Shown here one piece after another: positions 1,656 to 64,000 of a DNA stretch of 64,000 bases. Location of the stretch: IMG/VR virus record IMGVR_UViG_3300031993_004551, positions 1-64,000 of that record; one strand, given 5' to 3'. The notes below the pieces were generated by a model, which saw only the letters and a program-made list of their open reading frames with translations, made no database searches and was not told the DNA's origin. Position 1 is the stretch's first letter. Each line of letters starts with the position of its first letter. The position numbers and the translations under genes were made by a program. Origin of the DNA: a virus (Duplodnaviria; Heunggongvirae; Uroviricota; Caudoviricetes).

Positions 1656-1753
1656 AGTTTCCTCGGTTGTTTCGTAATCGAAGTTTATATCTCCGTCGGA
1701 TTTTTGAAAATCGCGGTCATTTTTCGAAAACCGAGGTTGATTTTCGGAATTCG

Positions 1754-1765
1754 TTGCTATATTTA
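1754..1765 (+). promoter_or_regulatory. promoter motif TTGCTATATTTA, plus-oriented, 28 nt upstream of the ATG at 1791
   Basis: Variant of the recurrent TTTTTGCTATATTTG element. Preceded by TTTCGAAAA-type palindromic repeats (1700-1750). Confidence 0.45.
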
Positions 1766-1790
1766 AAACAAATCAACAAAAGAGGACTAT

Positions 1791-1985
1791 ATGAACGTAG
1801 AAGAACTGAAAAAGGCAATCAAGGACAAGGTTCCGAACGTAGCAATCGAAGGCATTACCAAGGTCGTCGTCGCGAAGAAAAAGAAGCGCGGCGGCTACAG
1901 CATCTATCCGTGCGTGACCGAAGCTAATCTGGTCAATATCCCGCTTCTCGGCGGAGACTGTCTGGCCATCGTGTTCGAAGACTAG
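1791..1985 (+). CDS. hypothetical small protein (64 aa)
   Basis: ORF preceded by the promoter motif. Lys-rich. Confidence 0.4.
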   Translation: MNVEELKKAIKDKVPNVAIEGITKVVVAKKKKRGGYSIYPCVTEANLVNIPLLGGDCLAIVFED

Positions 1986-1988
1986 CCT

Positions 1989-2489
1989 ATGCGTAAACAG
2001 AGCAAACTCGAATTCTACCGTACCGTGACCGCAGTCTCGGTTCCGGTGTACAAGTACAGGTTTCCGAAGTCTGTGCTGAAGTACAAGTCGAAGGAGTATT
2101 ACGGCCAATGGAACTGGTATTGGGACCGTGACCTTCCGAAGAAGTCGGTGGACGACCTCCTGTCCAAGATCGCCGCCACGCTGACACAGACGACCTACGG
2201 TGTAGTGTTAGTCACTCGTCAAGGAAACGAGACCAGTTACAAGATTCCATACAAGGTCGTGTTCAAGGACAACCTTGTCAGGATTTACACGACACGGTAC
2301 CAGTTCATCAAGTCGCAGACCGGCAAGACTATCCTCACGACGCGCAAGGTGTATTTCTCGCCCACGCCGCATTTCGAGTGGGACTTCATTACATTGCGCG
2401 ACTTCAAGCAAGTCTTGTACTACTACGCATCGGACTGTGGATGCAAGAAGGCCAAAAAGCTTAGTGACAAGCTGACTGGTAATGGGTAA
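1989..2489 (+). CDS. hypothetical protein (166 aa)
   Basis: ORF tightly packed after the previous gene (3-nt spacer). No recognisable domain. Confidence 0.5.
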   Translation: MRKQSKLEFYRTVTAVSVPVYKYRFPKSVLKYKSKEYYGQWNWYWDRDLPKKSVDDLLSKIAATLTQTTYGVVLVTRQGNETSYKIPYKVVFKDNLVRIYTTRYQFIKSQTGKTILTTRKVYFSPTPHFEWDFITLRDFKQVLYYYASDCGCKKAKKLSDKLTGNG

Positions 2490-2865
2490 CCTACTTACTT
2501 TTGGAGAAAAAATGAGAGACTATATGGTACCTCCCTCGAAGGCCGAAGACCGTCGCGACAATCTATTGTGGATATCGGTTTTCTGGCCTATGCTTGCTGC
2601 GTACGTAGGATTGTTCTATCTGTTCTGGGTGGATAAGTTTAACCGATCGGTCGACCTGTTGTCGATTATGGGAAGTGTCGGCGTCGCCATCCTAGGTATG
2701 GTGCCGGTCGTATTCTTTTGGTTTATTTTTATCGTATATCCAGAGGTTAGAGACTGCCACTCGGAATACAATGACTGGAATTTCTACTGGTCGCACATCT
2801 TCGGTATCAACTTCTTTCCGTTAGCCGGTCTGTGCTGTTTTATCGGTTACAAGATATTCTGCTAG
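2482..2865 (+). CDS. hypothetical membrane protein (3-4 TM segments)
   Basis: Hydrophobic segments LLWISVFWPMLAAYVGLFYLFWV and VGVAILGMVPVVFFWFIFIV. Confidence 0.5.
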   Translation: MGNLLTFGEKMRDYMVPPSKAEDRRDNLLWISVFWPMLAAYVGLFYLFWVDKFNRSVDLLSIMGSVGVAILGMVPVVFFWFIFIVYPEVRDCHSEYNDWNFYWSHIFGINFFPLAGLCCFIGYKIFC

Positions 2866-3065
2866 GTTTTTTATAACATAGCGACGAGAAAACTCACCCA
2901 TCTTTAGTGGGTGAGATGAAAGCCGCTTGACGATTTTCGGAAAATTTGCTACATATATAAACTGATATACGAAGGCAACTCGCACTTGTCGTCGTGGGAA
3001 AGTTTAAGATGTACTTAGGTACATTGTGTCCTACCGGAAGTGCGAGTTCCGGTAGGATTTTTCGT

Positions 3066-4337
3066 ATGATAGTCAAGAAAGGCATAGAAATCAAGCTATA
3101 TCCGAACAAGGCGCAGAAGGTATTCTTTGCGAAGACCTTCGGTTGCTGTCGTTTCGTGTATAACCAGTGCCTTAAAATCAAGTCATATATCTACGAAGAG
3201 ACCAAGATGTCCTTCCAGCCGAAATTGAAGTCGTTTAAGGAAGAATGGGAATGGCTCAAGGAAGCCGACTCGCAAGGACTGGCTAATGCCTATATGGATA
3301 TGAACCAAGCCTACCAGAACTTCTTTACTGGTAAATCCAATTATCCGAGGTACAAGTCCAAGAAGGACAAGCAGAGCTACCGGAATGCTATGTGCCACAA
3401 GGATATTAAGAAACTAATTGTTGGCAATTCTATTGTACTGCCGAAGGTTGGTGCGGTCAAGTGCCGTTTCGGCAAGACATTCGAACACGAAAACATCGTT
3501 AAAATTTACAATGTTACAATCAAGAAAAGCAAGAAAGGCGACTATTATTGCTCAATATGTTGTGATGTTGATGTGCCGGAAATGGAACATACTGGCGAAT
3601 GCGTAGGACTCGACCTCGGCATCAAGTCGTCCATCGTGATGTCCAACGGAGAAGTGATTAAGAATCCACATTTCGATAAGAAGTCGGAACGAAAGATTAG
3701 GCATTTGCAGAGGAAACTCGCAAAGGCGAAGAAAGGCGGCAGTCGATACGAGAAAGTCCGTATTCAACTGGCCGCAGCCTATGAAAAACTGGGTAACAGA
3801 AGGAAAAACTTCCTTCATCAAGTATCGCACAGATTAGTCCGTGACTACGATATCATCTGTATGGAGAACCTTAACATAAAGGGAATGCAGAAAAACCATT
3901 GTCTTGCTGGCGCGTTGGCCAATCAGGCACTCGGTACACTAACTAAGATGATAGAGTACAAAGCTCAATGGCATAACCGTACGGTCGTTAAGGTAGGACG
4001 GTTCTTCCCCAGTTCGCAACTATGCAACAACTGTGGGCATAGATACCATACATTGAAACTTAGCGAACGCGAGTGGATATGTCCAGACTGTGGTAGCGTA
4101 ATAGATAGGGACTGGAATGCCGCCAAGAACATACTTGATGAAGGTCTTAGAATACTAGATAATGAAGGTACCCCGCGAACCGGGGAAGCCGTGGTCTTGC
4201 GACCGCTATGCCTTGCGGAGAACCCAACTGTGGATGAACGTCCTTGTGACCTAAAAAGCAGTGGTGCTATGATGCGGGAAATTCAACTGGTTGCATCGGT
4301 GGTTAACGAAACCCACCGGTCTTTAGCCGGTGGGTAG
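3066..4337 (+). CDS. tnpB: TnpB (IS605 OrfB-family RNA-guided nuclease)
   Basis: LYPNKAQ...GCCRFVYNQ N-terminus. RuvC-I GLDLGIKS. Zn finger CNNCGH...WICPDCGSVIDRDWNAAKNIL. Start moved to ATG 3066 (MIVKKGIEIKLYP). Confidence 0.85.
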   Translation: MIVKKGIEIKLYPNKAQKVFFAKTFGCCRFVYNQCLKIKSYIYEETKMSFQPKLKSFKEEWEWLKEADSQGLANAYMDMNQAYQNFFTGKSNYPRYKSKKDKQSYRNAMCHKDIKKLIVGNSIVLPKVGAVKCRFGKTFEHENIVKIYNVTIKKSKKGDYYCSICCDVDVPEMEHTGECVGLDLGIKSSIVMSNGEVIKNPHFDKKSERKIRHLQRKLAKAKKGGSRYEKVRIQLAAAYEKLGNRRKNFLHQVSHRLVRDYDIICMENLNIKGMQKNHCLAGALANQALGTLTKMIEYKAQWHNRTVVKVGRFFPSSQLCNNCGHRYHTLKLSEREWICPDCGSVIDRDWNAAKNILDEGLRILDNEGTPRTGEAVVLRPLCLAENPTVDERPCDLKSSGAMMREIQLVASVVNETHRSLAGG

Positions 4338-4532
4338 TTCATGCCTTGCTTTCATCCGGTTTCTTCCGGGCGGCCGCGAAGTATGTGCAGCCGTCGTCGT
4401 CCATGCAGTCCTCGTACTGCTGAGCGCGGTCCATTGCGGAAAGGAGGGTCGCACACGGCTGGACCATCTTGGTTTCCCCGGTATTTGTGTTACGACGGAA
4501 CACTCCGTACGGCTTTTCTTCTATAGTGCTCA
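4150..4532 (+). ncRNA. putative TnpB omega-RNA/RE region overlapping the tnpB 3' end
   Basis: In TnpB systems the omega-RNA is established to overlap the 3' end of tnpB. Hairpins seen here (ACCGGTCTTTAGCCGGTGGGT). No confident downstream ORF. Confidence 0.35.
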
Positions 4533-4931
4533 TTAGTGCAGTTCCTTAAGGTGAGGTTTTAAAACAGATATGAAGCTTTTGTATTGCTGTTCAGTCATCG
4601 ATGTCTTATGCATCTCGACCAAAGTATAAGCTTCAATAAATTTTGCCTTCGCCATATGGTTGTATGGCGCACAAAATGCCATAAAATAGATAGCTAAAGA
4701 CAACACAAGAATACCACCACCACTTAATGCCCAATTATAATATCCGCCCTGTTGATTAGAAAGTTGCGATGGTGATTTCCGAATATACAAGACGGCTGCC
4801 ATTACAATAAAAACAATTCCAATTGAAGTCAGAATTATTAAAAATATCGTTAGTGCCGTTTCAACACTATTGTAATTGTATGCTGTTTCAATACAATAAG
4901 TTATTTTATTGATGATATCATTAGACAGCAT
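4533..4931 (-). CDS. hypothetical membrane protein (2 TM)
   Basis: TALTIFLIILTSIGIVFIVMAAVLYI and ILVLSLAIYFMAFCAPY hydrophobic segments. Confidence 0.5.
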   Translation of the reverse strand: MLSNDIINKITYCIETAYNYNSVETALTIFLIILTSIGIVFIVMAAVLYIRKSPSQLSNQQGGYYNWALSGGGILVLSLAIYFMAFCAPYNHMAKAKFIEAYTLVEMHKTSMTEQQYKSFISVLKPHLKELH

Positions 4932-4933
4932 AA

Positions 4934-5530
4934 TTAAGTTTCCTCTTTAGGTTGATTGTCGATGGCAAATACCTTGAGCTTCTTGAGAATTTCAATCGCA
5001 TACGGAAGCCCACCAAGTTCGGGAAGCGTCTTGAGATACTCCATATTCCGCTCACACGCAACGATTACAGCTGGAAGTAGCGCTAACGCATTCTTGGTAA
5101 TCGATGCCTCGGCCATCTTAGAATAGTCGACATGTATCGGAGGAACATTGATTCCACGCTCGGCATTGAATACATCGATGATTTTCTGTTTGTATTCCTT
5201 ATCAGCGTTAGGTTCCGGAAAAATGTGGTAAACTCCCTCATCGTCCAGCTTAACCTGATAGGAACTACCGTCGACCGTTACAAGTCCGCGCCGCTTGTCC
5301 AACGGGGGAAGCTCGATTTTTCCAGCCAAACGGATGATATCGGCTGCCCTGTCAAGCATCCGGCACTTGTACTTGGTTTCCATAAACCCTCTTAGGGTTT
5401 CATCATCCATCAGCTTAAACTTTTTGTGGTTGAGCGTCTGAATCGCATACGCAAAGATATTTGGCCCTTCAACAGGGATATTCGAAGCGTCATCAACCAT
5501 TGGACTTATATTAGAGGCGTCATCAGCCAT
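4934..5530 (-). CDS. hypothetical protein with N-terminal tandem 10-aa repeat
   Basis: ORF runs to 5569. Starting at ATG 5530 avoids a 46-nt overlap with the upstream gene (start uncertain). PMADDASNIS/PMVDDASNIP is encoded by a 30-bp tandem repeat. Confidence 0.45.
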   Translation of the reverse strand: MADDASNISPMVDDASNIPVEGPNIFAYAIQTLNHKKFKLMDDETLRGFMETKYKCRMLDRAADIIRLAGKIELPPLDKRRGLVTVDGSSYQVKLDDEGVYHIFPEPNADKEYKQKIIDVFNAERGINVPPIHVDYSKMAEASITKNALALLPAVIVACERNMEYLKTLPELGGLPYAIEILKKLKVFAIDNQPKEET

Positions 5531-6530
5531 TGGATTTATTCTCCCTATTAGCAGCGCGGCACACCGCACAGTCGAATGTTGCGGTCACCTTGATTGGATG
5601 GAACATCAGGATTTTGTAAGTGTCCGGCAACCCTTCGATATTCCCGTGGGAATCGAACTTGCACTTCAAGGAGATGAGCAACGGGACATCATCGATGTTG
5701 TCGCCGCACCATATGATAGCCCGGCCATAGAAATGTATGTTTTCTACGCCAGGGTCGGACATCTGATACGGGACTACATGCTTGGTATAGTCATTGAGCG
5801 CAAATTCATGCACATCACCAATGTCGATTGAGCATTTCTTGTCACGAAGGGCTTCTTTCGGAATGGAATAAATTAAAGAATCTTTCGGAATGGAATAAAT
5901 TAAATCTTCGTAATACCTGTACGAATCGCTCACCGTTTCGTTTTGCTTCAACGGAAGAGCATACCACGGCTTCTTCCCGTTAGTGAACATTTTAGCACTA
6001 ATTATTCCCTGTTCAGGGGCGACTTCGGTAAGCCTTCCATTAACAATTTTAGGAGGAATCTTCCTGAAATATGCATACGGGGCTACCAACTTGGAAACAT
6101 TGTCCGCCGTCGCCTGTACCCAGTACGCAAGCTTAAATGCCCGAAGCGCCTGTTTAAGCGTCTTCAGTTCTTCAAGATATGGCTTACGAGCTTCAAGATA
6201 GAAGTTCTTAACCTGGGTTCTAGCCGGAAGCAAAGACTCCACCTTGTCCTTACCGAGCGAAGCTTCCCAGATAGTCTTCCCGGTCTTTTCACGGATAGCC
6301 CGTCGGTCGTCAAATGTAATTAAAGTATACACCGTATTGGAGCTTTTGTATGCCACCTTCAGGAGAGAGAGATTGGCGTTAACTTCGTCGATTCGCTTGC
6401 CGCACTTGTCTATGTAAGTAGGAATACTCCAATATGAATGCCCGTTGAACAAGAAACCAGAGTTGGTATGCTGTTCAGTCTTGATTTTCTGGATTATATT
6501 ATCCAGCTCTTTAAAGTTAGTAATTTTCAT
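5523..6530 (-). CDS. hypothetical protein (335 aa) with internal 9-aa tandem duplication
   Basis: Long ORF. DLIYSIPKDS-LIYSIPKEA is encoded by a perfect 24-nt repeat spaced 27 bp (5854-5904). Confidence 0.55.
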   Translation of the reverse strand: MKITNFKELDNIIQKIKTEQHTNSGFLFNGHSYWSIPTYIDKCGKRIDEVNANLSLLKVAYKSSNTVYTLITFDDRRAIREKTGKTIWEASLGKDKVESLLPARTQVKNFYLEARKPYLEELKTLKQALRAFKLAYWVQATADNVSKLVAPYAYFRKIPPKIVNGRLTEVAPEQGIISAKMFTNGKKPWYALPLKQNETVSDSYRYYEDLIYSIPKDSLIYSIPKEALRDKKCSIDIGDVHEFALNDYTKHVVPYQMSDPGVENIHFYGRAIIWCGDNIDDVPLLISLKCKFDSHGNIEGLPDTYKILMFHPIKVTATFDCAVCRAANRENKSNG

Positions 6531-6826: not shown

Positions 6827-6833
6827 GATACTA

Positions 6834-6848
6834 CAAATATAGCAAAAA
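6834..6848 (-). promoter_or_regulatory. promoter motif (minus-oriented TTTTTGCTATATTTG) 7 nt upstream of the ATG at 6826
   Basis: Plus-strand text CAAATATAGCAAAAA. Confidence 0.5.
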
Positions 6849-6864
6849 CGATAAACACCTGATT

Positions 6865-43716: not shown

Positions 43717-43770
43717 ATTGCTACCTGGCGACCTTCGATATGTTCGCCATAAGTTGACATACTCTCACGA

Positions 43771-44901
43771 CTAAAGTCGTGGGATTCTGGGAGTTGCCAC
43801 AGATGGGCAACATGTCCCAAAGGTAGATGCCCCTACCTTACATAAGTTAATTGCGGCATTCCTATCCCTATCGTGTTCCGCACCACATTTAGGACATATC
43901 CAATGACGGATTGACGCATCCTTCAATTTGTGGTTTTTATAACCGCATTCGGAGCATAGCTGACTGGATGGATACCACTTGTCTGCGTACATGACCGTCT
44001 TACCAGTCCTATGAGCTACATATTCGAGAACGCTCAAGAAGGTATCGAACCCGAAGTCATACATGGACTTTTTGTACTTCCTGGATAGATTACCCAAGTC
44101 CAGCGTTTCAAACACCATCACATCGTAATCACGGCAGAACCGCCGAGCCAACTTCCAGTGCATGTCCGAACGCTGATTAGCCACCTTCTCGTGTAGCTTC
44201 TGCAATGTACGCAGCGAGCCTCGCTTACCTTTAGACTTTCGGTATTTCTCCGATAAGTTCCTTAAAGAATTGAGGTTCTTCTGCAAGATTTTAGGCATAC
44301 TGCAATCATCACCGTTAGAGGAAACCAAGAAGTCATGCACACTGAAGTCGAAACCAACGATTTCACCCGATTTAGTCCACTCTGTCTGTGTACATTCTTG
44401 CTCTACGACTACATAAATATAGAAACCATTACTCTTGCGTTTGACGGTGAGCGTTTTAATCTTGCCGTCGAAATCCCTGCTGTTCCAGTAGGGAAAGTCT
44501 TTCTTGCCTATCTTAACATGATTTAAGTCGTGAAACTTGTATCCAGCTTGCTTCGTCGTGAATGAATGATATTTAGCCGTCTTCTGGAAGTGAGGAGGAT
44601 TAGTCTTCTTTCCAGCTTTCAAATTCGAGAAGAATAAATGGTATGCCCGGTCTATCCTATCCGTTATGTCTTGGATGGCTTGCGAAGGAACTTCGTTCCA
44701 CTCTGTATATTGTTTCTTCAACTTTGTGAGGTACTTCTGTAACTGGTACTTATTCAACATCTTATGGTAGATGCCATAGTACCGACGGTGCAGAGCAATA
44801 CAGTGGTTGAATATCCGACCAGCAATAACAAGTATATTGTCGAGATACTTCAAGGAATCCCGATTGTACAGCTTGTATTTGTATGTATTCAATTCAACCA
44901 T
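43771..44901 (-). CDS. tnpB: TnpB (IS605 OrfB family)
   Basis: RuvC-I VGFDFSV. SQLCSECGYKNHKLKDASIRHWICPKCGAEHDRDRNAAINL is the Zn finger plus RuvC-III. Start at ATG 44901 (MVELNTYKYKLY). Confidence 0.85.
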   Translation of the reverse strand: MVELNTYKYKLYNRDSLKYLDNILVIAGRIFNHCIALHRRYYGIYHKMLNKYQLQKYLTKLKKQYTEWNEVPSQAIQDITDRIDRAYHLFFSNLKAGKKTNPPHFQKTAKYHSFTTKQAGYKFHDLNHVKIGKKDFPYWNSRDFDGKIKTLTVKRKSNGFYIYVVVEQECTQTEWTKSGEIVGFDFSVHDFLVSSNGDDCSMPKILQKNLNSLRNLSEKYRKSKGKRGSLRTLQKLHEKVANQRSDMHWKLARRFCRDYDVMVFETLDLGNLSRKYKKSMYDFGFDTFLSVLEYVAHRTGKTVMYADKWYPSSQLCSECGYKNHKLKDASIRHWICPKCGAEHDRDRNAAINLCKVGASTFGTCCPSVATPRIPRL

Positions 44902-44955
44902 AGATAAGCAAAATGTCCACAGAACGCTTAATTTGCCCGTCAGCATTCCGTGGAC

Positions 44956-44983
44956 ATTCTAAATTCTAAATTCTAAATTCTAA
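44956..44983. repeat. tandem heptamer repeat (ATTCTAA)x4
   Basis: Four direct copies read from the sequence, 55 nt from the tnpB start. Confidence 0.8.
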
Positions 44984-45241
44984 TCGTGATAGGAGGACGG
45001 GCAAGAACTCTTATCTTAATAAAGTTTATAATAATATACTAAAACTTTTCCTACTTAGCAACCGTTTCCATCATCCTACGGCAAAAAAAAAACGTGACAT
45101 TTCGGTTCAGCGTAAGCCATTATAGCCGCGGATTGCGGTACTTGAACGGGTTCCGCAACGGATTCTACCTGGATATTTTCCTGTGGCGGAGACGGTATCT
45201 TATGTCTAGGAGTTTTAGTGGTCATACTTAAACCTTCCTTA

Positions 45242-46808: not shown

Positions 46809-47683
46809 ACCCGGTCCCCCACAAGCTCGGCAAGAGTCTTGAACTCGCCCTTGTACAACCCCTGCGACCTGAACAGGTACACCAGCTCCCTGCGCTTAGA
46901 CTCGAGCAGCTGCAGGAATGCGTCATGCTGGTAAATATTGGTTGGCCGGGGATGCTCTATATGGCATACACCGTCCCGTTCCATGACGGGCGTCGTCCGG
47001 ATAGGAATGCCACCGTAGAAGCACTCCATCCCGACGAAGCCGTCCTCCCCTCCCCATCTCCCGGCAAATGCCGGGCTGAAAACGGAACGGTGGCCATACA
47101 GTTTTCCGTTAAGGTCACTAAGGGCCTTGACGGCCTCCCCCGTAATACCGAAGTTGCAAGTCCATACCACCCCAGAATCGGCTATGTACCGTTCCGAAGT
47201 CACTGTACCCGGCTTGTCCGTAAAAATAGGAATCGGACGGGAAGCTATCGCCTCCCTCTGGTCGTGCGAACCCCACTTGCATTCCGTGCGGCGCCCCACG
47301 GTGACACACCCGGGCTCCATTGCGGCTACATGGGATTCAACCATCTGCGGCAACGGAATACAGTCGCCGTCGGTAAATATCACCAGGTCGCAGTCGTACA
47401 GCATAGCCAGCGCCAAGTCACGGCACCTCCCTGCGCCAAACGGAGGAACACCCGGCATCATCGGCGGCCGCCCCATCGGGTTCACACGGGTACTTACCGC
47501 AAGGAACTCGCATCCCGGAATTGCCGAGTACGCCCTGTTCACGGCGACCCGTTCGACGATTGACGGCCTGTCCATCACCACGAGCACACGGTCGGGCTTC
47601 ACCGTCTGGGAAAGAACGCCTTCCACGATGGCGGGGGCGTACTTTTCCTGTTCCTTGCACAATATAGTCAGAGCTATCTTCAT
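46805..47683 (-). CDS. putative family-2-like glycosyltransferase
   Basis: VLVVMDRPS...DCDLVIFTDGDCIP is a DxD region. Start at ATG 47683 (MKIALTIL). Degenerate promoter motif (TTTTGCTATAG) about 90 nt upstream. Confidence 0.45.
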   Translation of the reverse strand: MKIALTILCKEQEKYAPAIVEGVLSQTVKPDRVLVVMDRPSIVERVAVNRAYSAIPGCEFLAVSTRVNPMGRPPMMPGVPPFGAGRCRDLALAMLYDCDLVIFTDGDCIPLPQMVESHVAAMEPGCVTVGRRTECKWGSHDQREAIASRPIPIFTDKPGTVTSERYIADSGVVWTCNFGITGEAVKALSDLNGKLYGHRSVFSPAFAGRWGGEDGFVGMECFYGGIPIRTTPVMERDGVCHIEHPRPTNIYQHDAFLQLLESKRRELVYLFRSQGLYKGEFKTLAELVGDRV

Positions 47684-47759
47684 AAAATATTCGGCCAAGA
47701 AGATGCCACCTGCCGCGATTAGCGGTCCGGGACCCTTTAGGGTGGCATAGGAATAGCCG

Positions 47760-49165
47760 CCTCCAACAAAACTATAGCAAAATATATTGGAATTGGATAA
47801 AATATTTTGTAAATTATATAAACATTTTAATGTATCGGAATTATTGGCCTTCTTCTGGTACAAGATAGGAATTTTAGATGCTCGGTAGATACTGAAGGCC
47901 AAAATAAGTGTCTACCGGGCATTGCTTGTTTTATGGTGATTAGTTATAACGCAGTTCTCATCTTTCCTAATACGGAAACCGAATCGAGATACAAGGAAGT
48001 TCTCGATGCTGAGAAGGATTGCTATAACTATCTTAGCCAGATATTCGACCGAATAAACTTTAAGCACCATAGATTAAGTCGATACGATGTACAATCGGAA
48101 TATTACAAGGAACTTAGGGAGAAATTTCCATTATTAAGCAGCCAGATGGTCCTGAAGACTATATTGGAAGCTGTAGGCAACTGGACTACTTGCATAGCAA
48201 ACGAAAAGGACAATTTCGAACCGCCTATCAAAAAGAACCTTTCCATGGTTCTCGACAAGCGACTGTACAGCAATTTAACGCGTAATACCGTCGATTTGAC
48301 TATACCCGGTTTCAAACGGGTCCACTGTACCATTGAAACATACGAACAGCTAGACAAGTTGTTTGAGGTATACCGCCCGCAGAACTGCAATATATTCTAT
48401 CGAAACGGTCGGTTCTTCCTAACGATACAGTTCGATGTACCGGAAATTGAGCACACCGAAGGCGAAGCTATCGGTATCGACCGAGGAATTCGCCGTATAG
48501 TGACCTGTTCCGATGGAACCGGGTGGATTAACCGTGATTTCAACCGAGAACGAAGGAAGCTCCGCTATCTTCGCCGTTGCTTAAAGTCAAAGAATAGCAA
48601 GTCCGCTAAGCGTCATTTGAGGAAATTGTCAAAGACTGAACGAAATCGTTCGAAGAACGAAGTCCATCGAGTAGTGAACTGGCTTCTTACCAAGGACTAT
48701 ACTACCTATGTACTAGAAGATTTAAGCAAAATTAAGAAGTCTACTTCCAAGAAAACCATCAAGATATATGGGAAGAACACGGAAGTCAAACGAAAGAAGC
48801 ATAATAACCGGTTTGGGCAGATTCCTCTGAAAGAAATCCAGACCACGCTAGAGTACAAGGCACCGCTTCTCGGGAAGGAAGTGGTAACAGTTGAACCAGC
48901 TTATACATCCCGCCTCGACTACCGAGGATTGCCCGAAGGCAAACGGCTGGGTACTCGTTATTATGCCTCGAACGGAGAATTGCTTGATGCCGATGGTAAT
49001 GGCGCTTGCAATATCGCCCTCCGTCACCGCCCCGACTCAATCGTAGTCAAGCCGACATACGGCTCTATGATATTCTCGGGCAGGCCGATGTCAACCGGCC
49101 AATCGTGGTTACAACTATTTCAAACGGTTGCAACTACAAGCTCACCGCCTAAAGGCGGTGCGTAG
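47760..49165 (+). mobile_element. IS200/IS605-family tnpB-only element
   Basis: AT-rich noncoding LE-like region at 47760-47932. The tnpB 3' end carries the hairpin CACCGCCTAAAGGCGGTG. Confidence 0.4.
47933..49165 (+). CDS. tnpB: TnpB-like protein lacking the canonical Zn finger
   Basis: RuvC-I AIGIDRGIRR. RuvC-III-like GNGACNIAL. No CxxC...CxxC between them (YTSRLDYRGLPEGKRLGTRYYASNGELLD). Confidence 0.72.
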   Translation: MVISYNAVLIFPNTETESRYKEVLDAEKDCYNYLSQIFDRINFKHHRLSRYDVQSEYYKELREKFPLLSSQMVLKTILEAVGNWTTCIANEKDNFEPPIKKNLSMVLDKRLYSNLTRNTVDLTIPGFKRVHCTIETYEQLDKLFEVYRPQNCNIFYRNGRFFLTIQFDVPEIEHTEGEAIGIDRGIRRIVTCSDGTGWINRDFNRERRKLRYLRRCLKSKNSKSAKRHLRKLSKTERNRSKNEVHRVVNWLLTKDYTTYVLEDLSKIKKSTSKKTIKIYGKNTEVKRKKHNNRFGQIPLKEIQTTLEYKAPLLGKEVVTVEPAYTSRLDYRGLPEGKRLGTRYYASNGELLDADGNGACNIALRHRPDSIVVKPTYGSMIFSGRPMSTGQSWLQLFQTVATTSSPPKGGA

Positions 49166-49964
49166 TTGACTTTTTCCTCTCCTCGCAATGCTTGCGGTAG
49201 ACTTCGGGCGCATTCATCCCGACATCCTTCCAAAGCCCGTTATCAAGCACATGCTGAACCGTGCCAACAAGCTTATTAACCGGGCACTCGACAATAGCCT
49301 TCCCGAACTCGTTATGCGGGCTGCGCTCCGAAATGACACAAGCGCCATTGATTACCGGATAGAACATACGGACCTGTTCCTGCCGGCAGCCATCAACGAA
49401 AGAATGAACATTAAGAATTACCTTAGAACGGGCAATCATATCCTTCAGCTTGTCACCGGAAATCCCGGTAGCCCAGACGGTAGAATAAGAATTCCAGGTA
49501 TTCGCCATAAGAGCACCGAGAATACTCATCCGGCGCGGAGTAGGGAATCCATAGAAAAGGATGTCGATGTCCTTATCCTTCGGCTCGATATCCTTGAGCG
49601 CATCACAGAATACCATCGGGCGATAAACCGGCTTGAACCGGTGCCGTGCCATCCACTCCATATTCGACAGGTCGTATTCCCATATCTCGTCGGCGTTCGC
49701 CAGCCAGTTAGCCGAATGCGCCTGCTGCGGTGTACGCGGCGCATTCCCCCAAGCCCACTTGGAACTGTCAAACATCTGCTCCAACTGGTAGACAATAATC
49801 TTCTTCCCCGGATACTTCTTCCGGAGATGCATGGGAAGATACTTAGCGACATTGTAGCCAAGCACCACGACAGAATCGTCATAAGCCCTGTCCCCATCGT
49901 AGAGCGCGTGAAGCATGCGCTCCACTTCGGAGAACACGACCTTATTTTCAGAAACAACTATCAT
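49149..49964 (-). CDS. putative glycosyltransferase (GT-B C-terminal-like)
   Basis: SKVILNVHSF...EQVRMFYPVINGACVISE resembles the GT1/GT4 C-terminal nucleotide-sugar-binding region. Weak. Confidence 0.4.
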   Translation of the reverse strand: MIVVSENKVVFSEVERMLHALYDGDRAYDDSVVVLGYNVAKYLPMHLRKKYPGKKIIVYQLEQMFDSSKWAWGNAPRTPQQAHSANWLANADEIWEYDLSNMEWMARHRFKPVYRPMVFCDALKDIEPKDKDIDILFYGFPTPRRMSILGALMANTWNSYSTVWATGISGDKLKDMIARSKVILNVHSFVDGCRQEQVRMFYPVINGACVISERSPHNEFGKAIVECPVNKLVGTVQHVLDNGLWKDVGMNAPEVYRKHCEERKKSTTHRL

Positions 49965-58299: not shown

Positions 58300-58750
58300 T
58301 GTAAATGGACGCATTTTATACAAAAAATATCAAAAGTATAGCCAAAATAGCTAAATAGATGCTAGATTTGAATATAGCAAGCACCAATAATCAATATTTG
58401 TGTGTTGCATTTAGCAACATATATGTATTCATAAGGAATGCTCGCATCAACGGCCCATAGATGTATAATCTAAAAGTGAATCTTGAACTCTTTGCTCTGG
58501 ATAACACTTTTCGTTGATTAGACTCAGTGAAGCATAATAATATGCTGAACTATGTTAAAAAGACCATGACACCCTGAGATATTTGGCCAAGTCTCTCGCC
58601 CTGTCGAACGATATTAAACAACCCAGATGGGTAAGGGTAGTGTATCGTTCATAAAAATCTTTTTAACCTTGTCGATGGTCACCCACAGGGATTAATCCCT
58701 GCATTACCTATTAAATTAGGTATAAAAGGATAGCGAAATGGTTTATGTGT
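58300..58750 (+). ncRNA. putative IscB omega-RNA (upstream of and overlapping the iscB 5' end)
   Basis: IscB omega-RNAs are established to lie directly 5' of iscB. Hairpins GTTGCATTTAGCAAC and CAGGGATTAATCCCTG are seen. Exact boundaries unknown. Confidence 0.4.
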
Positions 58751-60021
58751 TGAACAAGTCGGGAACCCCACTAATGCCAACTAGACGGTATGGTAAGGTT
58801 CGCCGTCTTATCAAAACCGGATTAGCTATTGTAATTCAGCACCAACCGTTCACTATCAAATTATTATATGATACTCTTAACAAAGTACAATTTGTTAATC
58901 TAGGTGTTGATGCGGGAAGTAAACATGTTGGCTTTTCGGCATCTACAACACAAACAGTATTGTTTGAAGCTCAACTAGATTTACGAACCGACATCACTAA
59001 AAAAATAGCAACTCGCAAACAATATCGTATTGGACGACGCTACCACAAAACACGGTATCGAGAAGCTAGATTTAATAATCGTATCAAATCAAAACGACAT
59101 AATTGGGTAGCGCCATCAATTAAAAATAAAATCGATAGCCATATATATTGGATTACTCGAATATGTTCTTTTTTACCAATTAAAAAAATAATAATTGAAG
59201 TAGGACAATTTGATACTCAATTATTAAAAGCAAATGATAATAATGAACTTGCTCCCAGGGGACGTGACTATCAAACTGGTGTGCAACTCGCCTTTTGGAA
59301 TACACGCGAATATATATTATACCGCGACAATCACACTTGTCAATGTTGCAAAGGGAAAAGTGGCGATTCGATACTGAACATTCATCACATTGAAAGCCGC
59401 AAGATTGGCGGAAATCGACCAGATAATTTAATTACCTTATGTAAAACATGCCATCGCAACTATCACGCTGGTATTTTAAAATTACCTAGTCGAATAAAAC
59501 GACCCAAATCATATCGGGATGCCGCTACAATGAATATGTTTCGAAACCACATGTATAAACAATTAAAACAAATGCTTGAACCAATTATTCAAGTAAATGT
59601 AACATATGGATATATCACTAAGCATTGCCGCATTAAGTATAACCTACCTAAAACACATATAATAGATGCTAGATGCATTAGCGAACACCCATTAGCTAAA
59701 CCGAGTTCAACATATTGGCGTATCAAAAAACGAAGAAACCATAATAGACAATTGCACAAATCTACCATTCTTAAAGGTGGGTTAAGAAAAAATAATCAAG
59801 CACCATATGAAGTATTTGGATTTCGATTATTTGACGCTGTTAAATATCACCAAATGACTTGTTTTGTAACGGGACGCCGTTTAACCGGGTTATTTGCAAT
59901 AAACAATATTGATAAAACTATACGGGACAATTCAATTAGTTATAAAAAATTATCTCATATGTATCACACTAATTCTAACCTAATGGAGGAAATGATGTAT
60001 CATTCATCTAATACCAACTAA
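58738..60021 (+). CDS. iscB: IscB (OMEGA RNA-guided nuclease: PLMP-RuvC-bridge helix-HNH-RuvC)
   Basis: N-terminal GTPLMPT (PLMP domain). RuvC-I LGVDAGSKHVGFS. Arg-rich bridge helix RKQYRIGRRYHKTRYREARFNNRIKSKRHNW. RuvC-II IIIEVGQFD. HNH CQCCKG...NIHHIESRKIGGNRPDNLITLCKTCH. RuvC-III THIIDARCIS. Confidence 0.85.
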   Translation: MVYVLNKSGTPLMPTRRYGKVRRLIKTGLAIVIQHQPFTIKLLYDTLNKVQFVNLGVDAGSKHVGFSASTTQTVLFEAQLDLRTDITKKIATRKQYRIGRRYHKTRYREARFNNRIKSKRHNWVAPSIKNKIDSHIYWITRICSFLPIKKIIIEVGQFDTQLLKANDNNELAPRGRDYQTGVQLAFWNTREYILYRDNHTCQCCKGKSGDSILNIHHIESRKIGGNRPDNLITLCKTCHRNYHAGILKLPSRIKRPKSYRDAATMNMFRNHMYKQLKQMLEPIIQVNVTYGYITKHCRIKYNLPKTHIIDARCISEHPLAKPSSTYWRIKKRRNHNRQLHKSTILKGGLRKNNQAPYEVFGFRLFDAVKYHQMTCFVTGRRLTGLFAINNIDKTIRDNSISYKKLSHMYHTNSNLMEEMMYHSSNTN

Positions 60022-61825: not shown

Positions 61826-62119
61826 ATGAAAAAGACTTTATTTGACCGGGTTACCCCGATTTACAGGAGCGTGGTGATTCCCCAGTCACACTGGATGGCC
61901 GTAAGGCACCCGTACTTCATCCCGATTCAGCCCCCGCCGCCCCCGGGATGTTGCTGCCCGGTTCACGGGAGGCCAATCCTGAGGCCGACAAAGTACGGCC
62001 CGGAATGCATACTGAACCAGGCCAATATACCCTGCTGCATGGTGAGCGAAAAGCCGAGGTTCCCTGTAGCCAACCCGGCGGTACCCGACCCGATGATTCC
62101 GGAAGACCGAATGTACTAA
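61826..62119 (+). CDS. small Cys/Pro-rich protein (97 aa)
   Basis: ATG at 61826 (MKKTLFD). PPPPPGCCCP motif. Confidence 0.35.
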   Translation: MKKTLFDRVTPIYRSVVIPQSHWMAVRHPYFIPIQPPPPPGCCCPVHGRPILRPTKYGPECILNQANIPCCMVSEKPRFPVANPAVPDPMIPEDRMY

Positions 62120-64000
62120 TTGAAAAACCGTTGTCAAAAATCTAACAAAACCTACCAGTAGTAGATAATTGCTGATTTTCTATAGCTTGCTTGAACAAGC
62201 CATCGCAACGGCATTTTTCCAGACACTTCTTCACCTTCCACCTAGTAAGGAGTCCTTTCGGAATGAAGTACCTGTATTCGCTATCCCCTGCTCTTATGAG
62301 CAGGTTCCCTCTTAACACGGTCGAGGTAAGGCGAAATTTAATGTTCTCGGCCGAATGGATGTCGGCATTCTCGGAATGTCCGCATTCCACGCAGCAAAAT
62401 TCTTCTTGGGTCTGTCGGTTGCGGTCGTCGATGCAACCGCACTCACCGCACATCTTGGATGTATATTCGGGCTGTACAAGCGATACTAGCAAGCCGTACT
62501 TGGGTGCAATATGTATGAACTCGTCCTTCAACGAAGATAGTCCAGTCCGCAGATGCAACCTACCTAGATTAAATCCTTTTGAGTCATTAGCATGGAGTTT
62601 GCTCCCTTTGAAGCCGTCGAGGTTCTCCATTGCGATGTGCTTGAGTCCCTTAGCAGCAAAGGCTTGACAGAGCAGTACAATGGCTCGCTTGTTGGACTCG
62701 TTCAGCTTTAAGGTGATTGATTCAATGCGAGCTTTGTCCTTCTTGGATATCTTGAACGCATCGTGTTCCTCGCCTTCCTTAAACTTGGTATTGTAATTCT
62801 TCTGCTTCTGGTCTATATTGAGTAGTTCGGTTTCTAGGTCAGCTATCAGAGCATCGTCATTCGGCATGAACTCGCCGTTGCTCAATGCAAACATATTGTG
62901 CTTGGAATTGACATCTATACCGAGGGTATTTTCTTCGGTAATTTCCTCATTATTCTTGTATCGGTATCCGTCCCTAGCAAGAACAAAATGGATGTCCTTA
63001 CCACGGATAACTATTGTATAGGAAGTATCGGTTCCGTTGCAGTAACGGTTCAATGAACGGTGGTATGCCTTGTTATACTTGAACGGAATACATAGTGTGT
63101 TCTTACTATCGCCACGGTAGCCTTTGTCGTACCAATCCCAAGAAATTTCAATATAGTAGTCGAACTTTCCGGTCTCGTTCCTTCTGGCATCTACGATAGG
63201 ACGCTTGATGCGACTTCTGCCACTGAACGTAAGCGATTCGAAGGTAATCTTGCCTCGTTTCTCGTATTCAGAAAATACGGCAGACCGTCTTGATAGAGCC
63301 AACCGCATAAGGCGGTCAAACCCGAACTTCCTAATCTTATCCAATATGGTGCGGTAGAATTTCTGCTTTGTTGCATCAACCGTAGGAATTACTGATTCCA
63401 GCCAGTAGACAGTTTCATCCTTACCGTATCGTGCAAGCCAAGTCAGCACTTTGGTAAGTTCTGTCTTCTTTGTGCGAACTTCAACAGATTTAAGGTCACC
63501 TTTCTTGTGTCCCTTGACATTTATCTTGTAGAAAAATGGTACTAATTCATCAACCTTGACGAACTCAATCTTCCGGCGGATTGCATCGAACCGGAGCTGA
63601 TAGGCTCGCCATACATCCTCAATGGTCTTCTTCAAATAGTGACTAGACAGACGTGTATTGAATGTAGGGTTGAAGAAATTGAAAGCATCAAACTTGCTCA
63701 TATCTTGGAAACCGAGCATATCCGAGAAGAACACTTCGGATATGTCGTTTCTTACTGCACGGATTTCCTCAGCACGGTGGATGATTTCGGCTCGCTTCGT
63801 GTCGGACAAAAACATAGGATAGAACGCAGCCGAAAACTGCGATTCAAACCTATCTTTCAATGTCCAACAGTGCTTGCTCATATAAACAGAAATGGCTCGT
63901 AAGGAACTTATTGTGAGATTCAATTCCAAACGAGCCATCATAAATGGCTTCTACCTAGCCCAATGAAGAATCTCACTAATTCATTGAACCTCGATACATC
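62105..64000 (-). mobile_element. IS200/IS605-family element with long tnpB (extends past the window end)
   Basis: tnpB ORF 62142-63941. Only 59 bp of 5' flank lies in the window. Confidence 0.4.
62142..63941 (-). CDS. tnpB: TnpB-like protein, long form (599 aa)
   Basis: RuvC-I LGIDVNSKHN. Zn finger CGECGCIDDRNRQTQEEFCCVECGH plus ADIHSAENIKF (RuvC-III). About 200 aa longer at the N-terminus than the other copies. Confidence 0.78.
   Translation of the reverse strand: MMARLELNLTISSLRAISVYMSKHCWTLKDRFESQFSAAFYPMFLSDTKRAEIIHRAEEIRAVRNDISEVFFSDMLGFQDMSKFDAFNFFNPTFNTRLSSHYLKKTIEDVWRAYQLRFDAIRRKIEFVKVDELVPFFYKINVKGHKKGDLKSVEVRTKKTELTKVLTWLARYGKDETVYWLESVIPTVDATKQKFYRTILDKIRKFGFDRLMRLALSRRSAVFSEYEKRGKITFESLTFSGRSRIKRPIVDARRNETGKFDYYIEISWDWYDKGYRGDSKNTLCIPFKYNKAYHRSLNRYCNGTDTSYTIVIRGKDIHFVLARDGYRYKNNEEITEENTLGIDVNSKHNMFALSNGEFMPNDDALIADLETELLNIDQKQKNYNTKFKEGEEHDAFKISKKDKARIESITLKLNESNKRAIVLLCQAFAAKGLKHIAMENLDGFKGSKLHANDSKGFNLGRLHLRTGLSSLKDEFIHIAPKYGLLVSLVQPEYTSKMCGECGCIDDRNRQTQEEFCCVECGHSENADIHSAENIKFRLTSTVLRGNLLIRAGDSEYRYFIPKGLLTRWKVKKCLEKCRCDGLFKQAIENQQLSTTGRFC

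What the first reader, a model, noticed from the sequence alone, without database searches (positions are those of the whole stretch)
2866..4532. Four mutually divergent tnpB-only IS200/IS605 elements in 64 kb (this one plus 43717-45241, 47760-49165, 62105-64000)
The four TnpB proteins share only the RuvC and Zn-finger skeleton. Their N-terminal halves are unrelated in sequence, which implies independent acquisitions rather than intragenomic spread. None has a tnpA partner. This density of OMEGA nucleases (plus IscB) in a phage is notable and may reflect guided-nuclease roles such as homing or competitor exclusion.
Basis: seen in the sequence. Interest (0 to 1): 0.55.

Follow-up and report, generated by a model that had tools for sequence, protein, structure and literature searches.

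The report
Four guide-RNA nuclease transposons in phage
A 64-kb stretch of a large gut phage genome carries four unrelated, transposase-less "TnpB plus guide RNA" mobile elements (three IS605-type, one IS607-type) that sit at different places in related phages; this is a well-preserved example of a known kind of selfish element, not a new system.

Summary
Four intact TnpB genes and one IscB with its HEARO RNA lie in this window, which comes from a 109-kb ENA metagenome contig.

None of the four has a tnpA. They share no nucleotide similarity apart from one 51-nt patch.

Several details of the finding are wrong:
- The coordinates are off by 5 to 190 nt.
- T1, T2 and T3 are homologous over their full length, N-terminal halves included.
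- T3 and its whole clade lack the zinc ribbon.
- T4 is an IS607-family element, not IS200/IS605.

Relatives define exact ends. T1 follows TTTAT, T2 follows TTAC and ends in TCAA, T3 follows TTYAY, and T4 uses a GGG/GG core.

Each family recurs at 70-98% nucleotide identity at different sites in related large phage contigs. dN/dS is 0.05-0.2, and the 3' guide-RNA regions are conserved.

Autonomous relatives exist in related contigs: a Y1 TnpA for the T1 type and a MerR-serine recombinase for the T4 type.

Best reading: these are non-autonomous OMEGA elements endemic to this phage lineage. A transposase supplied in trans moves them, and RNA-guided cutting of empty sites keeps them in place. Phage-to-phage homing is plausible but untested.

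T4 copies also carry a 5' leader with a hypervariable, covarying kissing loop of unknown role.

The parts
2870..2874 (+). T1 target/TAM pentanucleotide TTTAT, immediately 5' of the left end
   Evidence: It is conserved at the left junction of 8 T1 copies whose flanks are otherwise unrelated. In the filled/empty pair L035 vs L034 the pentamer belongs to the target.
2875..4342 (+). T1: IS200/IS605-type tnpB-only element, 1468 bp
   Evidence: Similarity to L028-L035 starts and stops at window 2870 and 4342 while the flanks differ. L028 is 98% identical but sits at another site. Removing the element leaves the convergent 64-aa ORF unchanged.
2893..2915 (+). T1 left-end hairpin CTCACCCATCTTTAGTGGGTGAG
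   Evidence: Read from the sequence and recovered by a motif scan. It is conserved in relatives. The LE of the autonomous relative L045 is 81% alike.
3066..4337 (+). T1 tnpB, 423 aa from the ATG giving MIVKKGIEIKLYPN
   Evidence: Pfam HTH_OrfB_IS605, OrfB_IS605 and TNB all match. It aligns full length with ISDra2 TnpB, E 1.8e-68. dN/dS is 0.05-0.09 outside the RNA overlap.
4120..4342 (+). T1 presumed omega-RNA scaffold overlapping the ORF 3' end, including the RE hairpin at 4312-4334
   Evidence: dS falls from 0.3-0.67 to 0.04-0.09 in the last 75 codons. The region is nearly invariant at nucleotide level and folds into conserved hairpins. The last 35 nt are identical in the autonomous relative L045.
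4343..4362 (+). T1 predicted guide (flanking DNA read through from the RE): GCCTTGCTTTCATCCGGTTT
   Evidence: Inferred from the IS605 omega-RNA architecture. No transcript data exist.
43754..45111 (-). T2: IS608-like tnpB-only element, 1358 bp. TAM TTAC at 45115-45112; right end ...GTATGTCAA
   Evidence: Boundaries are shared with L039, L041 and L042, whose flanks are unrelated. The TTAC target and TCAA end match the classical IS608 cleavage sites, which I cite from my own knowledge of IS608.
43771..44901 (-). T2 tnpB, 376 aa from the ATG giving MVELNTYKYKLYN
   Evidence: Pfam OrfB_IS605 and TNB match. ISDra2 TnpB aligns at E 3e-42. dN/dS is 0.06-0.08.
43764..43783 (-). T2 right-end hairpin CCCACGACTTTAGTCGTGAG, with one C.A mismatch in this copy
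45075..45099 (-). T2 left-end hairpin position, decayed in this copy: TGTCACGTTTTTTTTTTGCCGTAGG against GCCCACGGCTTCAGCCGTGGG in relatives
   Evidence: Alignment of left ends. It implies this copy can no longer be excised by a Y1 transposase.
47679..47683 (+). T3 target/TAM TTCAT, which is also the reverse complement of the ATG of the glycosyltransferase gene
   Evidence: L004 has TTCAC here, and the empty site in L006 has TTTAC. Reconstruction gives an ATGA stop/start overlap of two phage genes.
47684..49170 (+). T3: IS200/IS605-type tnpB-only element, 1487 bp
   Evidence: It is 91% identical to L004 1246-2738, whose flanks are unrelated. The precise empty site is in L006.
47705..47746 (+). 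T3 left-end palindromic region: GCCACC...ACCCTTTAGGGTGGC
   Evidence: Read from the sequence. It is conserved in L004.
47933..49165 (+). T3 tnpB, 410 aa. The RuvC D-E-D is present but the zinc ribbon is absent
   Evidence: Pfam matches are weak. The Zn-less trait holds across the clade. Full-length profile homology to the T1 family is 99.6% probable. dN/dS is 0.21.
49144..49161 (+). T3 right-end hairpin CACCGCCTAAAGGCGGTG
   Evidence: L004 reads CACACCCTAAAGGGTGTG, a double compensatory change that keeps the stem.
49171..49190 (+). T3 predicted guide TTTTTCCTCTCCTCGCAATG
   Evidence: Inferred from the architecture. Coordinates.
62128..64000 (-). T4: IS607-family tnpB-only element. The left end lies about 121 nt beyond the window, at L044 9695
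   Evidence: 19 IMG/VR loci share the sequence from GGGTTAYCAACAGCTAACC to ...TAGATTTYWGNCAACGG, with unrelated flanks. The source contig shows the missing left end. Autonomous relatives with a serine recombinase share the RE. The filled/empty pair L049/L050 shows insertion at GG.
62142..63881 (-). T4 tnpB, 579 aa from the ATG giving MSKHCWTLKD
   Evidence: Pfam TNB only. D323, E419, D507 and the four Cys are invariant across 56 relatives down to 24% identity. The closest solved structures are Cas12f proteins, E 3.6e-27 with the family profile. dN/dS is 0.07-0.11.
62128..62335 (-). T4 omega-RNA scaffold overlapping the ORF 3' end
   Evidence: RNAalifold predicts 63 pairs, 12 of them with compensatory changes. 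The terminal CAACGG pairs with an upstream GCCGTTGC. dS is 0.3 here against about 1.0 upstream.
62108..62127 (-). T4 predicted guide (flank after the GG core): TTTTTCAATTAGTACATTCG
   Evidence: Inferred from the architecture. Coordinates.
63892..63987 (-). T4 5' leader. Two hairpins (63987-63960 and 63938-63892) are joined by a 7-bp loop-loop helix (63976-63970 with 63919-63913)
   Evidence: 99.2% of 390 cells are paired, against 34-44% when the partners are slid. Four of the 7 kissing pairs covary, and 13 copies carry 7 alleles. Each 7-mer occurs only once per element.
58446..60021 (+). Context: IscB (58738-60021) with its upstream HEARO/omega RNA (58446-58686)
   Evidence: Pfam RRXRR and HNH. 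Rfam HEARO 97.7 bits, E 8e-19. GC is 0.35 against 0.50 for the window.

Best explanation
WHAT IT IS
The window holds four non-autonomous OMEGA transposons. Each is just a tnpB gene, its 3' guide-RNA (omega RNA) scaffold and the transposon ends.
- T1, T2 and T3 are IS200/IS605-type. They have subterminal hairpins and insert 3' of TTTAT, TTAC or TTYAY without duplicating the target.
- T4 is IS607-type. It has a GG crossover core, a GGG motif on its left side, and no hairpin ends.
- All four belong to element families endemic to one lineage of large gut phages.

HOW IT MOST LIKELY WORKS
1. Shown: the ends are precise, and copies sit at different sites in related phages.
2. Shown for the T1 and T4 types: autonomous relatives with near-identical ends carry a Y1 TnpA or a MerR-serine recombinase TnpA.
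3. Inferred: those enzymes move the tnpB-only copies in trans, supplied by a co-resident element, a co-infecting phage or the host.
4. Inferred from established TnpB biology: TnpB, loaded with an omega RNA whose last ~16-20 nt are transcribed from the flank, cuts any genome copy that has the motif plus flank but lacks the element. Homologous repair from an element-bearing copy then reinstates it or copies it in.
5. Inferred: in a phage the empty targets would be excision products among replicating genomes, or a co-infecting relative. The second case is homing with possible marker exclusion.

The insertions sit at gene boundaries and spare phage genes. That fits tolerated selfish elements better than phage-serving genes.
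For: IDENTITY
- Pfam matches and PDB matches.
- The catalytic D-E-D is intact in all four.

ENDS AND MOBILITY
- Boundaries are consistent across 8 (T1), 5 (T2), 1 (T3) and 19 (T4) loci with unrelated flanks.
- Filled/empty site pairs exist: L035/L034, L034/L035, L004/L006 and L049/L050.
- The T1 copy in L028, at a different site, is 98% identical. The copy at the same site in L036 is only 96% identical.

SELECTION
- dN/dS is 0.05-0.21.
- Synonymous change collapses over the last 75 codons of T1 and T4.

GUIDE-RNA SCAFFOLDS
- T4 has 63 predicted pairs, 12 compensatory.
- The T3 right-end stem carries a compensatory double change.
- The T1 and T2 3' regions are nearly invariant.

TRANSPOSASE PARTNERS
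- L045-L047 carry a Y1_Tnp gene next to a T1-like tnpB. The last 35 nt of their RE are identical to T1's, and their LE is 81% alike.
- L029 carries a TnpA N-terminus.
- L049, L053 and L058 carry a MerR+Resolvase gene directly upstream of a T4-like tnpB with the same RE.
- The IS607 rules (GG core, TGGG-type TAM, omega RNA at the RE) are described in bioRxiv 10.1101/2023.11.20.567912.

GENE-SPARING INSERTION
- T3 sits inside an ATGA stop/start overlap.
- T1 sits between convergent stop codons, and the neighbouring ORF is unchanged.

NO CRISPR ARRAY
- None was found in the window.
Against: - No expression or cleavage data exist. The guide RNAs, TAMs and nuclease activity are inferred from anatomy and homology.
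- No transposase partner was found for the T2 or T3 types.
- The window's T2 copy has a decayed left-end hairpin, yet its ORF is intact and under purifying selection. For that copy, retention of the ORF cannot be explained by its own transposition cycle.
- No empty site matching a window guide was found in the fetched loci or in JGI metagenomes.
- In the filled/empty pairs that were found, flanks are only ~80% alike, so the guides would mismatch.
- The T4 left flank shows only a GGG motif, which would be a very permissive TAM.
Confidence: 0.7

Rival explanations
1. Phage weapons. The TnpB and IscB ribonucleoproteins are kept mainly because they benefit the phage. They would cut co-infecting relatives that lack the insertion (competitor or marker exclusion), much as free-standing homing endonucleases do in T-even phages. 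Transposition would be incidental.
For: - Five guided nucleases lie in 64 kb.
- All ORFs are under strong purifying selection, including T2, whose left end is decayed and which is probably immobile.
- Insertion polymorphism among related phages creates the targets this would need.
- The concept is laid out for homing endonucleases and OMEGA systems in PMC13565253.
Against: - No matching empty target was found for any window guide.
- The elements keep complete transposon ends, and some are 98% identical at different sites. That is the signature of selfish mobility.
- Each guide is fixed by the insertion site and can only recognise the element's own empty site.
- GC of 0.42-0.45, against 0.50 for the window, suggests elements not fully ameliorated to the phage.
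Confidence: 0.2
2. Domesticated, nuclease-independent regulators. These would be TldR-like RNA-guided repressors, or other repurposed TnpBs acting on host or phage genes.
For: Phage-encoded TnpB derivatives that act as RNA-guided transcription factors are known (TldR; papers listed). T2's decayed left end fits an immobilised gene.
Against: - All four keep the RuvC D-E-D triad, whereas TldRs are nuclease-dead.
- All four keep transposon ends and occupy variable sites.
- The predicted guides are simply flanking sequence, with no convincing second match in the window.
Confidence: 0.05
3. Inert passengers. These would be dead remnants of insertion sequences picked up from the host, with no current activity.
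For: There is no tnpA in the window. The T2 left end is decayed. GC is lower than the surrounding phage DNA.
Against: - The ORFs are intact with dN/dS 0.05-0.21.
- The RNA structures are conserved, with covariation.
- Near-identical copies sit at different sites in different phages.
- No T4 relative was found in 185,579 species-representative bacterial and archaeal genomes. That scan only finds close relatives.
Confidence: 0.05

Closest known systems
ISDra2 / IS608-type IS200/IS605 elements with TnpB and omega RNA (Deinococcus ISDra2, Helicobacter IS608)
   Same: - T1 and T2 align end to end with ISDra2 TnpB.
- They have subterminal hairpins at both ends and insert 3' of a 4-5-nt motif without duplication. 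T2 uses TTAC and ends in TCAA, exactly as IS608 does.
- The guide-RNA scaffold overlaps the 3' end of tnpB and the right end.
- A Y1 TnpA is present in autonomous relatives of T1.
   Different: - There is no tnpA in any window copy.
- They reside in a large phage, and the families circulate among phages.
- T1 uses TTTAT as target and TTCAT as its end.
- T3 lacks the zinc ribbon.
IS607-family elements (serine recombinase TnpA plus TnpB), e.g. the C. botulinum IS607 IStron studied in bioRxiv 10.1101/2023.11.20.567912
   Same: - T4 has a GG core at both junctions and a G-rich motif (NGGG) on the left, comparable to TGGG in the C. botulinum element.
- It has no inverted repeats and no target duplication.
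- Its omega RNA lies at the right end.
- Autonomous relatives carry a MerR-HTH plus Resolvase gene directly upstream of tnpB.
   Different: - The window copy lacks tnpA.
- No group I intron was detected (Rfam E<=10).
- TnpB is large (579 aa) and closest to Cas12f among solved structures.
- The tnpB-only lineage has its own ~240-nt left region with a kissing-loop leader that the autonomous copy lacks.
Zinc-finger-less TnpB branches described by Altae-Tran et al. 2023 (PMC10691335), e.g. clade RIIIr-4, noted there as enriched in viruses
   Same: T3 and its clade lack the C4 zinc finger and occur largely in virus-sized contigs.
   Different: RIIIr-4 is defined by a rearranged RuvC-III site. T3 keeps a canonical-looking DADxNxAxNI motif. 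Membership was not tested by phylogeny.
Free-standing homing endonucleases of T-even phages (Seg, Mob) and 'non-restorative transposon homing' (review PMC13565253)
   Same: Both involve a nuclease gene placed between conserved phage genes, present or absent among relatives. Both are expected to cut the allele that lacks it during co-infection.
   Different: Recognition here would be RNA-guided and tied to the element's own empty site. It is not demonstrated for these elements.
Multi-copy TnpB in Lak megaphages and other huge phages
   Same: T1 finds 39-43% identical genes at 2-5 places per Lak phage genome. Matches occur in 426 of 50,697 phage records.
   Different: Those records are unannotated, and their element ends and mobility were not examined here.

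Membership tests
IS200/IS605 (T1, T2, T3) | TnpB with split RuvC (D, E, D) and usually a C4 zinc ribbon | tested here: met
   RuvC motifs are present in all three, with Pfam OrfB_IS605 and TNB matches. T1 and T2 have the ribbon. T3 lacks it, as does its whole clade; such branches are known (PMC10691335).
IS200/IS605 (T1, T2, T3) | Subterminal imperfect palindromes (hairpins) at left and right ends; no terminal inverted repeats | tested here: met
   - T1: LE 2893-2915 and RE 4312-4334.
- T2: RE 43764-43783. The LE hairpin is present in relatives but decayed in the window copy.
- T3: LE 47705-47746 and RE 49144-49161, the latter with a compensatory change.

IS200/IS605 (T1, T2, T3) | Insertion 3' of a short conserved target, without target-site duplication | tested here: met
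   Conserved TTTAT (T1), TTAC (T2) and TTYAY (T3) lie at the left junctions. Filled/empty pairs exist for the T1 type and for T3. Reconstructed empty sites restore the neighbouring ORFs.
IS200/IS605 (T1, T2, T3) | Y1 HUH transposase TnpA in autonomous members | tested here: inconclusive
   It is absent from the window. It is present next to T1-like tnpB genes with the same RE in L045-L047 (Pfam Y1_Tnp) and in L029. None was found for the T2 or T3 types in the loci available.
IS200/IS605 and IS607 (all four) | Omega RNA transcribed from the tnpB 3' end and RE, with a flank-derived guide; RNA-guided DNA cleavage next to a TAM | not testable with these tools
   Only indirect support exists: the dS collapse, and conserved or covarying 3' structure. 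No Rfam family matches these regions.
IS607 (T4) | Serine recombinase TnpA (MerR-like HTH plus Resolvase) upstream of tnpB in autonomous members | tested here: met
   L049 369-1007, L058 and L053 carry Pfam MerR, HTH_17 and Resolvase directly upstream of a 579-aa T4-like tnpB. It is absent from the window copy.
IS607 (T4) | GG core dinucleotide at both junctions; no inverted repeats or hairpin ends; no target duplication | tested here: met
   All complete copies read N-GGG|TTAYC...CAAC-GG|T. L050 (aca GGG TTATCGG) against L049 (aca GGG [TTACC...CAACGG] TTATCGG) shows exact insertion at GG. The rule itself comes from bioRxiv 10.1101/2023.11.20.567912.
IStron (IS605/IS607 fused to a group I intron) | Group I intron core in the left part of the element | tested here: not met
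   Rfam found no match at E<=10 in L009 2600-4900 or at E<=1 in the window. The T4 left region is only ~240 nt.
Type V CRISPR-Cas (Cas12f, CasPhi, CasLambda) for T4 | An adjacent CRISPR array supplying the guides | tested here: not met
   No array was found in the window. The conserved unit ends 15 nt after the stop codon in 19 loci.
TldR-type nuclease-dead TnpB regulators | Loss of RuvC catalytic residues | tested here: not met
   D, E and D are retained in all four proteins.

The most novel reading that the evidence does not exclude
The tnpB-only IS607 lineage (T4) may have evolved its own control module. This is a 5' leader in which two hairpins kiss through a 7-bp helix. The central 4-5 nt of that helix are hypervariable yet always complementary: 13 copies that are ~80% identical carry 7 alleles. 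The autonomous tnpA-bearing relative has no such leader.

The most novel reading not excluded is that this is a copy-specific specificity determinant, a kind of 'incompatibility barcode'. It could govern TnpB translation, mRNA-versus-omega-RNA processing, or cross-talk between co-resident or co-infecting copies, by analogy with the kissing loops of plasmid antisense control.

A second, broader reading is that these elements spread phage to phage by RNA-guided homing during co-infection.
Probability: 0.15. Interest if true: 0.65.

Novelty: new member of a known kind. Interest (0 to 1): 0.42.

Why it matters
TnpB and IscB elements are the ancestors of Cas12 and Cas9. They are known to be common in phages, so their presence here is not a surprise.

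What this locus adds is a natural system that is unusually easy to read:
- There are four families with exactly mapped ends, target motifs and predicted guides.
- Filled and empty sites exist among related large gut phages.
- Autonomous and non-autonomous partners are available for two families.

This makes one open question directly testable. Do RNA-guided nucleases drive homing or marker exclusion between co-infecting phages, as protein homing endonucleases do in T4?

The locus also supplies compact nuclease candidates: a Zn-less 410-aa TnpB and a 579-aa Cas12f-like IS607 TnpB. In addition it shows a strongly covarying 5' leader RNA of unknown function.

Tried and rejected
- Megablast of window 1-20000 against INPHARED phages found no match. 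The phage is only distantly related to isolates; its terminase is 24% identical to the best hit.
- IMG/VR scans with two flanking phage proteins (45242-46432 and 5523-6530) found no relatives. Synteny-based empty sites for the window's own T1, T2 and T3 could therefore not be obtained.
- Exact look-ups of flanking proteins returned only contigs that also carry the element.
- Exact 25-mers spanning the reconstructed empty sites of T1 and T3 had no match in JGI metagenomes.
- Rfam has no family for the four TnpB 3' regions or the T4 leader. A group I intron (IStron) reading for T4 was therefore rejected.
- A search for guide-like second targets in the window and 69 loci gave only chance-level hits. 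The best was a 2-mismatch match of the T2 guide inside T4-like ORFs, without a TTAC motif, and I judged it chance.
- The AlphaFold2 model of T4 from a shallow alignment was poor (pLDDT 50.6, pTM 0.32). No fold search was run. Profile searches against PDB sequences were used instead.
- A GTDB genome scan found no close T4 relative. This method only finds close relatives.
- Cluster look-ups gave no organism names.
- I tested whether the variable T4 leader loops pair with flanking DNA, which would make them a programmable target selector as with the IS608 guide tetranucleotide. No correspondence with the flanks was seen.
- CRISPR arrays: none.
Full report
WHAT IS THERE

The window is part of a 108,958-bp ENA metagenome contig (ERZ27257203 k141_1517512). 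It is clearly viral. It encodes a T4-type large terminase, PhoH, an RNA ligase, RlaP, a tail-fibre protein and an IF3-like gene. It has no close relative among isolated phages. It is 96% identical over 3.8 kb to a 355-kb IMG/VR contig.

Pfam confirms four TnpB-like ORFs and one IscB. Rfam finds the IscB guide RNA (HEARO, 97.7 bits) just upstream of IscB. Profile searches of all six-frame ORFs find no further TnpB. There is no CRISPR array.

No IS200-type transposase is present. A TnpA probe that scores 145 bits on Pfam Y1_Tnp finds nothing in the window.

Divergence is real. T1 and T2 share 27.5% identity, and the other pairs barely register by BLASTP. The only nucleotide similarity is a 51-nt T1/T2 patch. 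Three statements fail.

- The N-terminal halves are not unrelated.
  - T1 and T2 each align from residue 1 to about 360 with ISDra2 TnpB (E 1.8e-68 and 3e-42).
  - Family profiles of T1 and T3 align over residues 7-366 at 99.6% probability.
  - A deep T4 profile aligns with T1 only from the last WED strands onward (T1 121-358 with T4 261-516). Only T4's first ~250 residues stand apart.
- T3 has no zinc ribbon, and neither do any of its 120 listed relatives. Zn-less TnpB branches enriched in viruses have been described (PMC10691335).
- T4 is not an IS200/IS605 element (see below).

ELEMENT ANATOMY FROM RELATIVES

Related loci from IMG/VR and ENA/Logan give exact ends, because similarity stops abruptly while the flanks differ.

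- T1 = 2875-4342. It is preceded by TTTAT and ends ...GGGTAGTTCAT. Hairpins with a CTTTAG loop lie at both ends.
- T2 = 45111-43754 on the minus strand. It is preceded by TTAC and ends ...GTATGTCAA, the classical IS608 pair of sites. In the window copy the left hairpin has decayed and the right one has a mismatch, so this copy is probably immobile.
- T3 = 47684-49170. It is preceded by TTCAT (TTCAC in L004) and ends ...GTAGTTGAC. Its right hairpin carries a compensatory double change in L004.

Filled/empty pairs among relatives confirm insertion 3' of the pentamer with no duplication. The pairs are L035/L034, L034/L035 and L004/L006.

Removing the elements in silico restores sensible phage gene ends.
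- T3 sits inside an ATGA stop/start overlap of two co-oriented genes.
- T1 sits between two convergent stop codons, and its TTCAT end recreates the neighbour's stop.

T4 IS IS607-FAMILY

Nineteen IMG/VR loci share a unit with unrelated flanks. It runs from GGGTTAYCAACAGCTAACC, about 240 nt upstream of the ATG, to ...TAGATTTYWGNCAACGG, 15 nt after the stop. The left flank shows no conserved motif beyond GGG.

Pig-gut contigs L049, L058 and L053 carry a MerR-HTH plus Resolvase gene directly upstream of a 579-aa T4-like tnpB with the same right end. L050 against L049 is an exact empty/filled pair, showing insertion at a GG.

These are the published hallmarks of IS607: a serine recombinase, a GG core, a TGGG-type TAM, and no hairpins or duplications (bioRxiv 10.1101/2023.11.20.567912).

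The window's copy runs off the window end. The source contig shows its left end abutting a terminator-like hairpin.

T4's family comprises more than 1000 clusters at 90% identity, and 97 clusters at 50% identity with E<=1e-30. Many lie on contigs of 200-470 kb. No close relative was found in 185,579 reference genomes. Among solved structures its profile is closest to Cas12f (E 3.6e-27) and far from ISDra2 TnpB (6e-5).

ARE THEY ALIVE?

All four ORFs are intact with D-E-D triads. Against relatives, dN/dS is 0.05-0.21.

In T1 and T4 the synonymous rate collapses in the last 75 codons: 0.04-0.09 against 0.3-0.67 in T1, and ~0.3 against ~1.0 in T4. That is the signature of an overlapping functional RNA.

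- The T4 3' region folds into a consensus of 63 pairs, 12 with compensatory changes, and closes onto the terminal CAACGG.
- The T1 and T2 3' regions are nearly invariant, with conserved hairpins.

This is the standard omega-RNA layout. The guides would be the 16-20 nt beyond each right end.

MOBILITY AND PARTNERS

The T1 copy in L028, at an unrelated site in another phage, is 98% identical to the window's. The copy at the orthologous site in the 355-kb relative is only 96% identical. This indicates recent movement between genomes.

The same families co-occur in several related contigs. Examples are T1, T2 and T4 in IMGVR_UViG_3300031998_000006, and T1 and T4 in four others. The elements often sit next to one another.

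Autonomous relatives exist for two families.
- L045-L047 have a Y1 TnpA divergent from a T1-like tnpB. The last 35 nt of the right end are identical to T1's, and the left end is 81% alike.
- L049, L053 and L058 are the T4-type equivalents described above.

No partner was found for the T2 or T3 types.

MECHANISM

The best-supported account is the established OMEGA life cycle, transplanted into a phage population. A transposase supplied in trans moves the tnpB-only units. TnpB with its omega RNA cuts the motif-plus-flank joint wherever the element is missing, and recombination copies the element back. Phages replicate as many recombining copies and co-infect with relatives, so this could act as homing. 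The literature has proposed this as 'non-restorative homing' (PMC13565253).

I could not find an empty site matching any window guide. The phage-versus-phage step therefore remains inference.

The elements' lower GC (0.42-0.45 against 0.50; IscB 0.35), their gene-sparing positions and their complete ends fit tolerated selfish elements better than domesticated genes. The well-conserved ORF of the apparently immobile T2 copy is the one observation pointing towards a benefit beyond self-transposition.

AN UNEXPLAINED EXTRA

All tnpB-only T4 copies have a ~100-nt leader between a promoter-like region and the ATG. It forms two hairpins whose loops pair through 7 bp.
- Across 13 copies, 99.2% of cells are paired, against 34-44% when the partners are slid.
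- Four of the seven kissing pairs covary, and there are seven alleles.
- Each 7-mer occurs only at these two places in its element.
- The autonomous copy lacks the leader.
- It matches no Rfam family, and its role is unknown.

VERDICT

The finding is real but ordinary in kind. TnpB is known to be frequent in phages: 426 INPHARED records match T1, and Lak megaphages carry 2-5 copies each (PMC12607003).

The value of the locus lies in its completeness as a natural test bed for RNA-guided homing in phages, and in the T4 leader RNA.

Noticed in passing
window 63892-63987 (minus strand); also L009-L027 around 2895-2990: The T4 5' leader has two hairpins joined by a 7-bp loop-loop helix. Its central 4-5 nt are hypervariable but always complementary, with 7 alleles in 13 copies. 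The autonomous IS607 relative lacks it, and it matches no Rfam family.
   Followed up: partly
window 58446-60021: The IscB plus HEARO unit has GC 0.35 against 0.50 for the window. It is absent next to PhoH in the syntenic relatives L003-L007. A 56% identical IscB lies in L035 6114-7265, beside a T1 copy. Its element ends were not mapped.
   Followed up: partly
window 45075-45099 and 44956-44983: In the window's T2 copy the left-end hairpin is replaced by a T-run. A 7-nt unit (ATTCTAA) is repeated 4 times in the left region, where relatives have about 2 copies.
   Followed up: partly
window 47679-47683 / 49149-49172 and 2863-2874 / 4339-4344: Insertions sit exactly at gene junctions. T3 splits an ATGA stop/start overlap and gives the upstream gene a new 7-codon tail from the right end. 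T1 lies between convergent stops, and its TTCAT end recreates the neighbour's stop codon.
   Followed up: yes
L049 112-4752 (also L058); L026 1-1000; L011 1640-1690; L031 1047-4269: Elements are nested or clustered.
- An autonomous IS607 is inserted at the GG of a resident T4 copy's left junction.
- There is a tandem partial duplication of a T4 3' end.
- The right end of another IS605 element lies beside T4.
- A T2-like copy lies beside T1.
Together these suggest insertion hotspots.
   Followed up: partly
L035 5283-5345: The site that is 'empty' relative to L034's T1 insertion keeps a 14-nt stretch, TTTATAGCATCGGG, that resembles the first bases of the T1 left end. It may be a deletion footprint.
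   Followed up: no
window 62881 (+) and L002 3830, L016 3737, L049 5729: The predicted T2 guide 16-mer matches a site inside T4-like tnpB ORFs with 2 mismatches, or 4 in the window's own T4. No TTAC motif lies next to it, and I judged it chance.
   Followed up: partly
window 51552-52241 (minus strand): A 229-aa ORF carries Pfam IF3_N/IF3_C hits on the source contig's gene call. This looks like a phage-encoded translation initiation factor 3.
   Followed up: no
L045 1952-3382: A related phage contig carrying the autonomous T1-like IS605 also encodes a Fib_succ_major domain protein. Other relatives come from pig-gut metagenomes (PRJEB11755). These hint at a gut Fibrobacter or Bacteroidota host. 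The host was not determined.
   Followed up: no
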